Source: an uncultured Candidatus Binatia bacterium (GTDB taxonomy: Bacteria; Desulfobacterota; Binatia; Bin18). From it: a DNA stretch of 64,000 nt. Shown piece after piece: positions 51,790 to 54,486 of the stretch. Below the pieces are notes generated by a model. The model saw only the letters and a list, made by a program, of their open reading frames with translations, was not told the DNA's origin and did no database searches. The stretch spans positions 254,639 through 318,638 of the forward strand of contig OZ242288.1 in assembly GCA_965207575.1 (NCBI GenBank), in the 5' to 3' direction. Numbering within the stretch: position 1 is the first letter of the stretch; each line of letters opens with the position of its first letter. The position numbers were made by a program, and so were the translations under genes.

Positions 51790-54486
51790 TTATGCGCCTT
51801 TTTCAATCAGCTCATACACCTTTTGGAGGGCTTCATCCAGGCGCTCCGGATCTTTTCCTCCAGCCTGGGCAAAATCGGGCCGCCCACCGCCGCCGCCGCC
51901 AACCAGCGGGGCGATCTCTTTGATAATCTTTCCCGCGTGATACTGCTGCACCAAATCCTTACTCACCGCGGCTAAGAGCGACACTTTCGCCCCGTTCGTC
52001 GCTCCAAGAACGACAACCGCCGGATGGTGTTTATCACGCAGCGTATCCGCCATCTCCCGGAGGGCTTTCTGATCCACGCCCTCGACCCGACTGGCGATCA
52101 CATTGACCCCATTGGTCTGGCGGACGTGGGAAGCAAGATCGTCGCTTTGCGAGCCGGCGAGTTGGCTCTGAAGCTGGTCGAGTTGTTTTTCAAGCTCGTG
52201 TTGCCGACTCAGCAATTTTTCCAAGCGCTCAAGCGCGTCCTCCTCAGAGCCTTTCAGGATGCGGCCCATGTCCTTGAGCACGTGCTCGCGTTGACGCACC
52301 CAGTCGAGAGCGCCCTCGCCCGTGACCGCCTCGACCCGCCGGATACCGGACGCCACGCCCGTCTCCGCCCTGAATTTGAACAACCCCACGTCCCCGGTCC
52401 GACTCACGTGGGTTCCGCCGCACAGCTCGGTTGAGAAATCTCCCATCCGTAACACCCGAACGATCTCGCCGTATTTCTCGCCAAAGAAGGCCAAGGCCCC
52501 TTTTTGTATCGCGTCGGTAAAGGACATCTCCTCACTCGTCACTGCGGCATTTTCCCGAATATGGTGGTTCACCAGGTTTTCGATTTCGTCCAGGACATCG
52601 TCCTTGACCGGACTGGTATGGGTAAAGTCGAAACGGAGTCGATCCGGGGTGACCAGGGAACCGGCCTGCCGCACGTGGGAGCCTAAAATCTCACGCAGCG
52701 CGGAATGCATGATATGCGTGGCGGAATGGTTCAAACGAATGGCTTCGCGCCGTGGGGCGTCAATGCTGAGATGCACGGCATCTCCGGTCCGCACCGCACC
52801 CTGCACCACCCGGCCCTTATGCACAATGAGTGAAGGCTGGGGTTTGAGCGTATCCAGCACCTCGATGAGATCGCCCCGGTCCGTTCGTATCGTCCCCGTA
52901 TCCCCGACCTGTCCGCCGGATTCACCATAAAAAGGCGTCTCGGCAGTGATCAGATCAACCGCTTCCCCTTCGCGTACCGCATCTGTTCGGGGCTGTCCGT
53001 CCACCAGTAGCGCCCGCACCTCGGATTCGTGTTCAGCCTGACGGTCGCCAACAAAACTGGCATGCACATCCGAATCGGAGAGCCCGGTATCGATAGAGAC
53101 CGAACCCTTTTGTCCCTCACGCGCGCGGGCTCGCTGCTCTTCCAGGGCCGCCTGAAATTCATCGTGGTCAACGCTGAAGCCTTCGGATGACAGAAAATCC
53201 TCGGTCATATCCAGCGGAAAGCCATAGGTATCGTACAAACGAAAGGCGGTTTCGCCGGACAAGATTGTCGCGTGGCGCTGACGCAGATCGTGGATTTCTT
53301 GTTCGAGCAGGGTCAGGCCCTTGTCCAGGGTTTCCGAAAAACGGGTTTCCTCATTGTGTATGACCTCAGTCAGATAGTCCTGTCGCTCAACCAGCTCGGA
53401 GTAGGCCGGGCCCAGGAGTTGGACCACGCTCCCGGCGACCTGAGAGAAAAACGGTCCCTCAAAGCCAAGGAGTCGCCCGTGGCGTAAGGCGCGGCGCATA
53501 ATCCGCCGCAGCACATAACCTCGCCCCTCGTTAGTCGGGACCACGCCGTCGGCAATGGCAAAGGCTGCCGTGCGCGCATGGTCGGCAATCACCCGAAACG
53601 ACACGTCCTGCTCACTCGTCTCGCCGTAGCGCTTGAAAGCAGAAACGTGTCCAGCTTTTGCGGATGATTGGAGGACACGTTTCTGCTTTTCACCTAACCC
53701 CTCGGTAAAGGTAATGATGTCGCGCAGCAGGTCGGAGTCATAATTCCCCGGCACGTCCTGGAGGACAGAGACGATGCGCTCCAAGCCCATACCCGTATCG
53801 ACATGCGTCTCGGGCAGATCGTCCAGGGATTGATCCGCATTGCGGTTGTACTGGATGAACACCAGATTCCATAACTCAATATAGCGCGGACAGCCGCCGT
53901 TGACCGCGCAGCTATGGCCAGGCGTATTGGCCAACTCGCAGGCCTGCGGGCCACGGTCAATATGGATTTCCGAGCACGGTCCGCAGGGGCCCGTCTCGCC
54001 CATTTCCCAGAAATTGTCCTTTTCAGCAAAACGCAAGATCTGTTGCGGATTGATATCGGTTTGGGTCCGCCACCACTCATCCGCTTCGTCGTCCGTCGTA
54101 TACACGGTTGCCCAGAGTTTCGGCTTGGGCAGTTTCCAGACCTCGGTCAGCAGTTCCCAGGCCCAGCGGATGGCTTCCTTTTTGTAGTAATCGCCAAACG
54201 ACCAGTTCCCCAGCATCTCAAAGAAGGTGTGGTGGTAGGTATCGCGGCCCACTTCTTCCAGATCGTTATGCTTCCCGGAGACGCGCAGACATTTTTGGGA
54301 ATCGACCACCCGCCGGTGGGTCGGCCGTTCAACCCCGAGAAAAATATTCTTGAACGGCACCATCCCGGCATTGGTAAACAGCAGCGTTGGATCATTGGCT
54401 GGAATCAAAGACGCACTCGGGACAATCTGATGACCCCGGTCGGCAAAAAATCGCAGGAAGCTGTCGCGTATCTCGTTCCCTGTCAT
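51790..54486 (-). CDS. alaS: Alanine--tRNA ligase
   Basis: LLFTNAGM, HHTFFEMLGN, DTGMGLER, editing motifs HSATH and CGGTH, and GGGGG.P.AQ. Confidence 0.98.
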   Translation of the reverse strand: MTGNEIRDSFLRFFADRGHQIVPSASLIPANDPTLLFTNAGMVPFKNIFLGVERPTHRRVVDSQKCLRVSGKHNDLEEVGRDTYHHTFFEMLGNWSFGDYYKKEAIRWAWELLTEVWKLPKPKLWATVYTTDDEADEWWRTQTDINPQQILRFAEKDNFWEMGETGPCGPCSEIHIDRGPQACELANTPGHSCAVNGGCPRYIELWNLVFIQYNRNADQSLDDLPETHVDTGMGLERIVSVLQDVPGNYDSDLLRDIITFTEGLGEKQKRVLQSSAKAGHVSAFKRYGETSEQDVSFRVIADHARTAAFAIADGVVPTNEGRGYVLRRIMRRALRHGRLLGFEGPFFSQVAGSVVQLLGPAYSELVERQDYLTEVIHNEETRFSETLDKGLTLLEQEIHDLRQRHATILSGETAFRLYDTYGFPLDMTEDFLSSEGFSVDHDEFQAALEEQRARAREGQKGSVSIDTGLSDSDVHASFVGDRQAEHESEVRALLVDGQPRTDAVREGEAVDLITAETPFYGESGGQVGDTGTIRTDRGDLIEVLDTLKPQPSLIVHKGRVVQGAVRTGDAVHLSIDAPRREAIRLNHSATHIMHSALREILGSHVRQAGSLVTPDRLRFDFTHTSPVKDDVLDEIENLVNHHIRENAAVTSEEMSFTDAIQKGALAFFGEKYGEIVRVLRMGDFSTELCGGTHVSRTGDVGLFKFRAETGVASGIRRVEAVTGEGALDWVRQREHVLKDMGRILKGSEEDALERLEKLLSRQHELEKQLDQLQSQLAGSQSDDLASHVRQTNGVNVIASRVEGVDQKALREMADTLRDKHHPAVVVLGATNGAKVSLLAAVSKDLVQQYHAGKIIKEIAPLVGGGGGGRPDFAQAGGKDPERLDEALQKVYELIEKGA
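53636..53689. repeat. Palindromic element copy 13, in frame inside alaS
   Basis: aaagcagaaacgtgtcc-agc...tgga-ggacacgtttctgcttt; perfect 17-bp arms; encodes KQKRVLQSSAKAGHVSAF. Confidence 0.93.

What the first reader, a model, noticed from the sequence alone, without database searches (positions are those of the whole stretch)
53635..53689. Young in-frame insertion in alanyl-tRNA synthetase
Seen: 54 bp with perfect 17-bp arms at residues ~267-284, between NYDSDLL..TEGLG and KRYG...SFRVIADH. From my knowledge of AlaRS this loop is normally shorter. Perfect arms inside a coding region suggest a recent insertion or a maintained hairpin. The AAGC[A/G]GAAAC arm variant is shared with copy 12 (50166), hinting at a subfamily.
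Basis: partly seen in the sequence, partly recalled or inferred. Interest (0 to 1): 0.75.

Follow-up and report, generated by a model that had tools for sequence, protein, structure and literature searches.

The report
Translated hairpin repeat inside alanyl-tRNA synthetase
The essential alanyl-tRNA synthetase gene of an uncultured sponge-associated Binatia bacterium carries, in frame, one copy of a 54-base hairpin-forming repeat that is scattered about 200 times through the genome and also sits inside many other housekeeping genes, much as the palindromic elements of Rickettsia do.

Summary
Two perfect 17-bp arms (53636-53652, 53673-53689) and a 20-nt loop make a 54-bp insert in alaS (51790-54486, minus strand). 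It splits an Asp codon and adds 18 residues.

It is one of 213 copies of a 54-bp palindromic repeat in this 4.7-Mb genome. The repeat was found in 13 of 19 sampled genomes of one Binatia genus and in 0 of 12 genomes from other genera. About 28 copies lie in frame inside genes, including Mfd, AcrB, MnmG, MetH and MltA.

"Young" is not supported. The same copy sits at the same site in four species, one of them only 86% identical in flanking DNA. Its nearest paralog matches 45 of 54 bases.

Close relatives lack the copy, and one has a deletion footprint. Metagenome contigs show both filled and empty alleles.

A copy private to this genome (mnmG site 2) shows clean 54-bp insertion without target duplication. 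No RAYT gene is linked to the repeat.

The closest analogue is the Rickettsia palindromic elements. The scan had already noted this family in two other Binatia genomes. I found no published account. I class it as a new member of a known kind, of moderate interest.

The parts
51790..54486 (-). alaS, alanyl-tRNA synthetase, 898 aa, intact ORF. It is the only match in the genome to a 200-aa fragment of it.
   Evidence: ORF list and translation. phmmer against PDB AlaRS 3HXU and 1RIQ gives E about 1e-138. One match in G000.
53636..53689 (-). 54-bp palindromic element inserted in frame. It encodes (E266)K267-F284, 'EKQKRVLQSSAKAGHVSAF'. On the family's own loop polarity it lies on the + strand, opposite to the gene.
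   Evidence: A 54-column gap in 13 of the 17 genus rows aligned. An 18-aa gap against 1RIQ. nhmmer 46.7 bits, E 6e-12.
53636..53652 (+). Left arm AAAGCAGAAACGTGTCC. The private variant GCAG replaces the family's GAGT/GAGG.
53653..53672 (+). 20-nt loop AGCTTTTGCGGATGATTGGA. It is of the 'AGCTTT' loop type, which is free of stop codons in the frame used.
53673..53689 (+). Right arm GGACACGTTTCTGCTTT, a perfect complement of the left arm.
   Evidence: The RNA fold is -28.9 kcal/mol (sense), z -6.3.
53631..53634 (+). Host GCTT (AAGC on the coding strand). It repeats bases 2-5 of the element on the coding strand. This 4-bp direct repeat is where the 54-bp deletion allele joins.
   Evidence: Joint 53630>53685, 'skips 54', with 4 letters fitting both sides, in a contig of run X6. 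The GAA-type empty allele of G005.
50165..50216 (+). Intergenic sister copy, 52 bp, 3.4 kb away. It is the only other copy with AAGC[A/G]GA arms. An orthologous copy exists in G006.
45821..45874 (+). Another in-frame copy in the window. It lies inside a MiaB-like radical-SAM methylthiotransferase gene, between the UPF0004 and Radical_SAM domains.
54526..54578 (+). Degenerate family copy in the recX-alaS spacer.
   Evidence: 27.4 bits.
3441..61200 (.). Span holding all 14 family copies in the window. They start at 3441, 9992, 14148, 34472, 38203, 44718, 45821, 47184, 47272, 50165, 53636, 54526, 60480 and 61151.
   Evidence: nhmmer with the iterated family profile.

Best explanation
The 54 bp are one copy of a small, gene-less, hairpin-forming mobile repeat confined to a subclade of one Binatia genus. 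The unit is 17-bp arms plus a roughly 20-nt loop of fixed polarity, exactly 54 bp.

Shown: the element inserts cleanly, without target-site duplication. Because the unit is 18 codons long and stop-free in four of six frames, copies that land in tolerant loops or linkers of proteins survive and should be translated.

Shown: the alaS copy entered between the 2nd and 3rd base of an Asp codon, in the loop after the first helix that follows the catalytic core. It is orthologous in four species, so it predates their split.

Inferred: it has since been lost repeatedly by microhomology-mediated deletion across the hairpin, or replaced by recombination with empty alleles. It has no function of its own in AlaRS. 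The enzyme that moves it is unknown.
For: Family: 213 non-overlapping nhmmer hits, of which 119 are exactly 54 bp. The exact-core pattern is present in 13 of 19 genus genomes and in 0 of 12 genomes from other genera, and the reversed control pattern gives 0. Of the 80 listed public matches, 64 are labelled Candidatus Binatia.

In-frame habit: 28 copies lie at least 30 codons inside crude gene calls, and 26 of these 28 have a length divisible by 3, against 133 of 213 overall. Pfam found a family in 18 of 20 host ORFs. Domains lie on both sides of, or span, 14-15 copies counting the alaS copy, which rests on the 1RIQ alignment. The hosts are Mfd, AcrB, MiaB-like, MnmG x2, CoA-transferase, MoxR, UvrD-like, MetH x2, MltA, an FAD oxidoreductase and SoxA/TsdA.

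Insertion in alaS: present in 4 of 18 genus genomes and 0 of 11 outgroups. There is an exact 18-aa gap against 1RIQ.

Mobility and boundaries: mnmG site 2 is filled only in G000 among 16 genus rows. The difference is exactly 54 bp, with no duplicated or ambiguous base.

Age: the G014 copy is closest to the G000 alaS copy (38/54, next best 34) and shares the private arm variant.

Loss: carriers are not one clade (AU p 1.3e-6), and 3 changes are needed on both the alaS tree and the 3-locus tree. The empty allele of G005 reads GAA-AAG, the product expected from deletion between the AAGC repeats. The same joint occurs in a contig of run X6. At mnmG site 1, G011 keeps the first 14 bp of the element and G002 keeps its last base.

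Tolerance: the AlphaFold2 model puts the insert at the end of helix 249-275 and in a loop, with pLDDT below 50 at residues 275-283.
Against: No mobilising enzyme was identified, and no longer parent element with these arms was seen in G000 (inspected by eye). Mobility therefore rests on comparative presence and absence only.

The empty alleles of G011, G008 and G007 read GAC/GAT like the outgroups. They need either exact excision or allele replacement, which I could not tell apart.

The three closest carriers show 0-1 changes in the 54 bp against about 4 in 66 flanking bases. G014 kept the stem through 3 compensatory pairs. Both hint at constraint on the hairpin rather than pure neutrality.

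Translation of the insert was not observed, because no RNA or protein data were examined. Gene calls were my own crude codon-usage calls, so the count of 28 is approximate.
Confidence: 0.85

Rival explanations
1. Recent ('young') insertion: the copy entered alaS only in this lineage, and its perfect arms reflect lack of time to decay.
For: The arms are perfect, 17/17. The family was recently active in G000, as mnmG site 2 shows.
Against: The same copy is present in G002, G004 and G014, whose flanks are 94.1%, 92.5% and 85.8% identical to G000. The nearest paralog matches only 45/54. Perfect arms occur in 24 of 209 copies, genic or not.
Confidence: 0.04
2. Maintained functional hairpin or exapted peptide: the stem, in DNA or mRNA, or the 18-residue loop is under selection in alaS. 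It might, for example, slow translation between the catalytic and tRNA-recognition domains or stabilise the message.
For: In G014, 15 of 17 pairs still pair despite 16 of 54 changed bases: 3 pairs changed on both sides and 2 went to G-U. Only 19 of 500 shuffles reach this covariation. G000, G002 and G004 differ at 0-1 of 54 positions while adjacent coding DNA differs at about 6%. The peptide is not conserved in G014, so any constraint would be on nucleic acid.
Against: 14 of 18 genus genomes do without it, including three in G000's own clade on the alaS tree (G005, G008 and G011). Other genic copies lose pairing freely, for example metH-B in G000 and G014. Genic and non-genic copies have equal arm complementarity, 15.4 against 15.1 of 17, p 0.56. 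There is no strand asymmetry of G-T against A-C mismatches, 135 against 141. Concerted change of palindrome arms by template switching would give the same pattern without selection (established knowledge of quasipalindrome mutagenesis, recalled).
Confidence: 0.12
3. Recurrent independent insertion at a hot spot: G014 and the G000/G002/G004 group each acquired a copy separately at the same dinucleotide, because the element has a strong target preference.
For: Flanks show a symmetric preference: G at -5 in 52% and C at +5 in 58% of 209 copies, and 19 of 27 genic copies on each side. The alaS site fits it. Carriers are not monophyletic.
Against: The four copies share the private GCAG/CTGC arm variant, found in only 2 of 213 copies in G000, and a loop closer to each other than to any other copy. 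The same holds for the shared odd loop of the metH-B copies in G000, G008, G001 and G014.
Confidence: 0.07
4. Assembly or polishing artefact of a long-read genome at a palindrome.
For: Palindromes are error-prone in assemblies (general knowledge).
Against: Contigs of independent runs cover 53300-54000 without gaps: X1 with 2 other letters, and X5 at depth 228 with 9 other letters. Three other genomes carry the same insert.
Confidence: 0.01

Closest known systems
Rickettsia palindromic elements (RPE; Ogata et al. 2000, known to me through passages of the review PMC10969869, and from recall)
   Same: A dispersed palindromic repeat family. A sizeable fraction of copies is inserted in frame in unrelated housekeeping genes, adding a family-specific peptide without destroying the host protein. 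Copies come and go between related species.
   Different: It is 54 bp, not about 100-150 bp. The host is a free-living or sponge-associated Binatia bacterium with a 4.7-Mb genome, not a reduced intracellular alpha-proteobacterium. Two peptide classes arise from two frames of one element. I did not test for sequence similarity to RPEs. Most copies here, about 85%, are outside genes.
REP / REPIN sequences mobilised by RAYT (Y1 HUH) transposases, e.g. in Pseudomonas and E. coli (recalled)
   Same: Short imperfect palindromes in hundreds of copies, mostly extragenic and lineage-restricted. They have no target-site duplication, and an inverted doublet forms one hairpin (REPIN-like).
   Different: No Y1_Tnp gene in G000. 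8 of 13 carrier genomes lack a hit. None of 5 tested Y1 loci has an element within about 1.5 kb. Copies are frequent inside coding sequence. The unit length is strictly quantised at 54 bp.
Bacterial MITEs such as Correia, Chunjie, Nezha, ERIC and BOX (review PMC10969869, passages read)
   Same: Non-autonomous small elements with terminal inverted repeats that fold into stable stem-loops. They occasionally make in-frame fusions with host ORFs.
   Different: There is no target-site duplication at the clean young insertion and no clear genome-wide excess of flanking direct repeats. No parent IS with the same ends was seen. The size is at or below the lower edge of the MITE range.

Membership tests
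RPE-like in-frame palindromic elements (as a kind) | Dispersed repeat family with hairpin-forming, palindromic sequence | tested here: met
   213 copies. Mean 15.1-15.4 of 17 arm pairs. Fold of -28.9 kcal/mol, z -6.3.
RPE-like in-frame palindromic elements (as a kind) | Copies inserted in frame in conserved protein genes whose ORF stays intact | tested here: met
   alaS: an 18-aa gap against 1RIQ and against 25 of 29 relatives. Pfam domains flank or span 14-15 copies, with the alaS copy counted on that alignment. 26 of 28 genic copies have a length divisible by 3.
RPE-like in-frame palindromic elements (as a kind) | Insert lies at a surface-exposed, structurally tolerant site | tested here: inconclusive
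   In the AlphaFold2 model (mean pLDDT 68.9), the insert is the end of helix 249-275 plus a loop with pLDDT below 50. I could not compute solvent exposure.
Rickettsia RPE families proper | Sequence homology to RPE-1..10 | not tested
   No RPE sequences were available from a tool. Length and host differ.
REP/REPIN-RAYT system | A RAYT (Y1 HUH transposase) gene in the genome, typically flanked by its REPs | tested here: not met
   PF01797 gives 0 hits in G000, while the control rings in 6 of 14 genomes. Hits in 5 of 13 carriers. 0 of 5 Y1 loci have an element hit at E<=10.
REP/REPIN-RAYT system | Short extragenic palindromes, many copies, no target duplication | tested here: met
   with the difference that about 13% of copies are genic.
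MITE | Terminal inverted repeats | tested here: met
   17-bp arms.
MITE | Target-site duplication flanking young copies | tested here: not met
   mnmG site 2: filled and empty alleles differ by exactly the 54-bp palindrome. The genome-wide scan for flanking repeats gives at most 2-4 times a small expectation after trying 72 offsets.
MITE | Related autonomous IS with the same ends | tested here: not met
   Only 12 left and 11 right solo arms in G000, none forming an IS-sized pair on inspection. Relatives were not searched.
Rfam RNA families | Match at gathering score | tested here: not met
   The only match in the window is a tRNA. At the element there are only sub-threshold miRNA-hairpin matches, 26 bits against a cutoff of 81.

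The most novel reading that the evidence does not exclude
The 54-bp hairpin unit is moved by a still unknown, RAYT-independent mechanism. It places the exact palindrome blunt, without duplication, at the centre of a symmetric target (G-N4 | N4-C). The unit has been shaped, at 18 codons and stop-free frames, to survive inside coding sequence. In some hosts such as alaS, its stem is then actively kept by compensatory evolution. That would make it a coding-sequence-adapted mobile hairpin with a new transposition chemistry, not merely another REP or MITE.
Probability: 0.25. Interest if true: 0.7.

Novelty: new member of a known kind. Interest (0 to 1): 0.45.

Why it matters
In-frame colonisation of essential genes by selfish palindromes is a textbook oddity of Rickettsia. 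Here it also occurs at scale in an unrelated, uncultured phylum with a normal-sized genome, in 14-15 domain-verified cases within one genome.

The case comes with an unusually clean record:
- an old copy, in alaS;
- a private young copy that fixes the element's exact boundaries, at mnmG site 2;
- deletion footprints;
- coexisting filled and empty alleles in metagenomes.

Together these make the gain and loss dynamics, the unknown insertion mechanism, and the tolerance of enzymes such as AlaRS, MetH and MnmG to 18-residue insertions open to experiment. For annotators, it explains lineage-specific 18-aa indels in Binatia proteins.

Tried and rejected
1. RAYT link. PF01797 was searched in G000 and in 31 genomes, and five Y1 loci were fetched. 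I found no association.

2. Parent IS. I scanned G000 for solo arms and found nothing IS-like. Relatives were not scanned.

3. Orientation against replication. 103 of 213 copies lie on the presumed leading strand. The GC-skew extremes at 1.15 and 2.85 Mb are asymmetric, so the origin call is unsure. No signal.

4. RNA-level selection. I compared G-T with A-C mismatches. The counts were 135 against 141 overall, and 14 on the sense strand against 24 on the antisense strand in genes. No support.

5. Genic copies better paired than others. They are not, p 0.56.

6. A first codon-score threshold of 25 bits was too strict and left 143 of 213 copies unclassified. I replaced it with crude gene calls.

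7. The copy at 60480 looked genic in the long ORF. However, the ADH domain starts at residue 133 of that ORF, so the copy is probably just upstream of the true start.

8. Rfam gave nothing.

9. In read laying, parts of runs X3 and X6 had no contig spanning the whole stretch. I draw nothing from those holes.

10. A look-up of scan notes by sequence returned nothing.

11. The first attempt at the three-locus tree failed on a script error and was rerun.
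Full report
OBSERVATION. The window holds an inverted repeat with arms at 53636-53652 and 53673-53689. The arms are 17 nt and 100% complementary, with 20 nt between them. The 54 bp lie inside an intact 898-aa ORF at 51790..54486 on the minus strand. That ORF is alanyl-tRNA synthetase, with phmmer E about 1e-138 to the solved AlaRS fragments 3HXU and 1RIQ. On the coding strand, the element starts at the third base of codon 266 and ends at the second base of codon 284. Host GA|C therefore became GAA...TTC. The protein gains 18 residues, and the D of relatives reads E. The arm motif with up to 3 mismatches occurs 15 times in the window against 0.10 expected.

IT IS AN INSERTION. 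I searched a 200-aa fragment around the site in 31 genomes: G000 itself, 18 others of the same genus and 12 from other genera. It matched in 30 of them. The exception was G010, which is 65% complete. The match is 600 bp long in G000, G002, G004 and G014 and 546 bp or shorter, sometimes in two pieces, elsewhere. In the protein alignment, the 18 residues are present in 4 of the 29 rows that cover the site. They are absent from 14 of 18 genus rows and from all 11 outgroup rows. The DNA alignment of 17 genus rows shows one clean 54-column gap. The alignment to Aquifex AlaRS (1RIQ) has an 18-residue gap exactly opposite the insert. G000 has only one match, so this is the working alaS.

IT IS A COPY OF A REPEAT FAMILY. 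I built a profile from the window copies and iterated it three times. It finds 213 non-overlapping copies in the 4.71-Mb genome, 14 of them in the window. The consensus is AAAGAG[T/G]AAACGTGTCC, then a loop starting AGC and ending TTGGA, then GGACACGTTT[A/C]CTCTTT. The loop gives the unit a polarity. 119 of 213 copies are exactly 54 bp.

The exact core AACGTGTCC-N14-26-GGACACGTT occurs 47 times in G000 and 3 to 61 times in 12 other genus genomes. It does not occur in the 6 most divergent genus genomes or in the 12 genomes from other genera. The reversed control pattern never matched. In the public collection, 64 of the 80 listed matches are records labelled Candidatus Binatia. Rfam has no such family. 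Two earlier notes of this scan describe the same 54-base family in other Binatia genomes, and I reached the same reading independently here. Literature searches found nothing on it for Binatia or Binatota.

IN-FRAME COPIES ARE A HABIT OF THE FAMILY. I made crude gene calls from my own codon-usage model. With these, 43 of 213 copies lie inside calls, 75 overlap an end and 95 are intergenic. 28 copies lie at least 30 codons from both ends. Of these 28, 26 have a length divisible by three, against 133 of 213 overall. 22 are opposite to the gene on the family's polarity and 6 are co-oriented. They fall mainly into two peptide classes:
- E-K-x-K-R-V-L-Q-..-K-A-G-H-V-S-S (phase 2; the alaS copy belongs here)
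- x-R-G-N-V-S-S-N-x-H-E-M-L-D-T-F-P-L (phase 1)

Pfam scans of 20 host ORFs found families in 18. Domains span or flank the insert in:
- Mfd
- AcrB
- a MiaB-like enzyme (in the window at 45821-45874)
- MnmG (two copies)
- a family-III CoA-transferase
- MoxR
- a UvrD-like helicase
- MetH (two copies, both in interdomain linkers)
- MltA
- an FAD oxidoreductase
- a SoxA/TsdA cytochrome

With the alaS copy, which rests on the 1RIQ alignment, this makes 14 copies, or 15 if a weak VWA match is counted. For the other hosts (OEP, HDAC, APH, AddB-like, MurC, ATP-grasp and two proteins with no family), a domain lies on one side only or there is none. Their genic status rests on my gene calls.

HOW THE ELEMENT INSERTS. 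mnmG site 2 is filled only in G000 among the 16 genus rows aligned. The closest relatives read CATCCA|CTCC where G000 has CATCCA + 54 bp + CTCC. No base is duplicated or ambiguous, and the copy is almost the family consensus. This fixes the unit at exactly the 54-bp palindrome. It also shows activity after G000 split from genomes about 95% identical to it.

A genome-wide scan for flanking direct repeats gave no convincing target duplication. Flanks do show a symmetric bias. G occurs at -5 in 52% and C at +5 in 58% of 209 copies, and A at -6 and T at +6 occur in only 2% each. The same bias holds in 19 of 27 genic copies on each side, and in 4 of the 5 sites where an empty allele proves the flank is host DNA. 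I read this as a target preference, G-N4|N4-C.

The Y1/RAYT transposase family is not found in G000, while the control genomes do give hits. It is found in only 5 of the 13 carrier genomes. None of the five Y1 loci I fetched has an element within about 1.5 kb. I saw no IS-sized pair of arms in G000. The mobilising function is therefore unknown.

THE alaS COPY IS OLD, NOT YOUNG. G002 and G004 have the same 54 bp with one and zero differences. G014 has a diverged version at the same site, phase and orientation. Over about 3.5 kb excluding the insert, identity to G000 is 94.1% for G002, 92.5% for G004 and 85.8% for G014.

Among all 54-bp copies of G000 in both orientations, the G014 copy is closest to the G000 alaS copy, at 38/54 with the next best at 34. 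All four share the arm variant GCAG/CTGC, which only 2 of 213 copies in G000 have. They are therefore orthologous. The G000 alaS copy matches its nearest paralog at only 45/54.

The other copy with this arm variant lies 3.4 kb away, at 50165-50216. An orthologous copy at that site exists in the more distant G006. The neighbour may therefore be the older of the two and the donor. This is an inference.

LOSS. On a tree of the locus without the insert columns, the four carriers are not one clade (AU p 1.3e-6). All four fall in one fully supported group of 8 rows, with G014 basal. On a three-locus tree of 10,807 columns and 14 genomes, the alaS state needs 3 changes. So do mnmG site 1 and metH site B. 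Three observations point to deletion.
- First, the empty allele of G005 reads GGCGA-A-AAGC, while all other empty alleles read GA[C/T]-AAGC. The G005 reading is the exact product of a deletion between the AAGC at element bases 2-5 and the AAGC that follows the element.
- Second, a metagenome contig in run X6 joins 53630 to 53685, skipping 54 bases, with 4 letters fitting both sides.
- Third, at mnmG site 1, G011 retains the first 14 bp of the element fused to host DNA 12 bp downstream, a net gain of 3 bp. G002 retains the element's last base, turning GAG into CAG.

The GAC/GAT empty alleles of G011, G008 and G007 need exact excision or replacement by recombination. I could not decide between these.

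INDEPENDENT SUPPORT FROM READS. 18 listed runs from 8 studies, labelled sponge, marine and coral-reef metagenomes plus two coded organisms, hold the stretch. I laid four of them. Contigs of X1 (1,443 nt, 2 differences) and X5 (16,939 nt, depth 228, 9 differences) cover 53300-54000 without a gap, so they carry the filled allele. X6 has both a filled-junction contig and the 54-bp-skipping contig. X3 has a filled contig and a diverged empty one, which skips 63 bases with 9 other letters. These are assembled contigs, so they show presence only and give no frequencies.

HAIRPIN AND PROTEIN. As RNA, the sense strand folds at -28.9 kcal/mol (z -6.3). The G014 version still folds at -26.7 kcal/mol, but its z of -0.7 is unremarkable for its GC content. 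Across the four orthologues, 10 of the 17 stem pairs never vary, 3 change on both sides, 2 change to G-U and 2 are broken in G014. 19 of 500 shuffles reach this covariation, and slid registers pair far less. This is modest evidence that the stem is kept.

Against selection, other genic copies lose pairing. Genic and other copies pair equally well. The pattern also fits arm homogenisation by template switching, which I cite from recall.

The AlphaFold2 model of residues 1-480 used a 22-row alignment and has mean pLDDT 68.9. It continues helix 249-275 into the insert and leaves residues 276-295 as coil, with pLDDT below 50 at 275-283. The next helix starts at 296. This is compatible with a tolerated surface loop between the catalytic core and the following helical domain. 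The domain naming is recalled, and exposure was not computed.

COMPARISON AND VERDICT. The behaviour matches the Rickettsia palindromic elements as summarised in the review PMC10969869, of which I read passages. The Ogata et al. 2000 paper itself is recalled. The element differs from RPEs in size, host and genome type. It resembles REP/REPIN in size, copy number and lack of duplication, but it fails the RAYT test. It fails the MITE tests of duplication and parent IS. I file it as a new member of the known kind 'palindromic mobile repeats that can be translated inside genes'. The dating is wrong.

Noticed in passing
whole genome G000, first 1.0 Mb (the window is at 0.25-0.32 Mb): 114 of the 213 family copies lie in the first 1.0 Mb of the 4.71-Mb contig. 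Several 100-kb bins elsewhere have none, so copies cluster strongly by region.
   Followed up: no
window 45821-45874: A second in-frame copy in the window. It lies in a MiaB-like methylthiotransferase gene, between the UPF0004 and Radical_SAM domains, and encodes EKRERVLQSDKKSGPVPSS.
   Followed up: partly
window 60480-60533: This copy lies inside a long ORF (59428..60783, minus strand). The ADH_N domain starts only at residue 133 of that ORF, so the copy probably sits just upstream of the true start of a zinc alcohol dehydrogenase. The arms carry Shine-Dalgarno-like AAAGAGG followed by GTG.
   Followed up: partly
L191 (G011 metH), aligned next to metH site B: G011 has an extra 18 bp that creates the perfect 22-bp palindrome GGGGCAATTCATGAATTGCCCC in frame in metH. 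This is a different micro-palindrome from the 54-bp family.
   Followed up: no
L176 (G014 mnmG), 8 bp downstream of mnmG site 1: G014 has an unrelated 24-bp in-frame insertion with an internal direct repeat (AGCCGG...AGCCGG) close to the site used by the 54-bp element in other species.
   Followed up: no
G001, two metH loci: G001 has two full metH matches, one with the site-B element and one without. Its contamination estimate is 8%, so this may be two strains or a duplication.
   Followed up: no
AlaRS residues about 460-480 (alignment A1 columns 481-510): A second variable spot in AlaRS. G011, G004, G007 and G014 carry small lineage-specific insertions of 10, 8, 3 and 5 residues at the end of the N-terminal fragment.
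   Followed up: no
L226 (G001), position 1871-1931: G001 has a family copy with AAAGCGG arms and an alaS-like loop. It lies in DNA that aligns to window 49702-50165, the end of the lnt gene, and makes that match 54 bp longer than in G000.
   Followed up: no
window 8523-8596: A tRNA gene on the minus strand. It is the only Rfam match at gathering score in the window.
   Followed up: no
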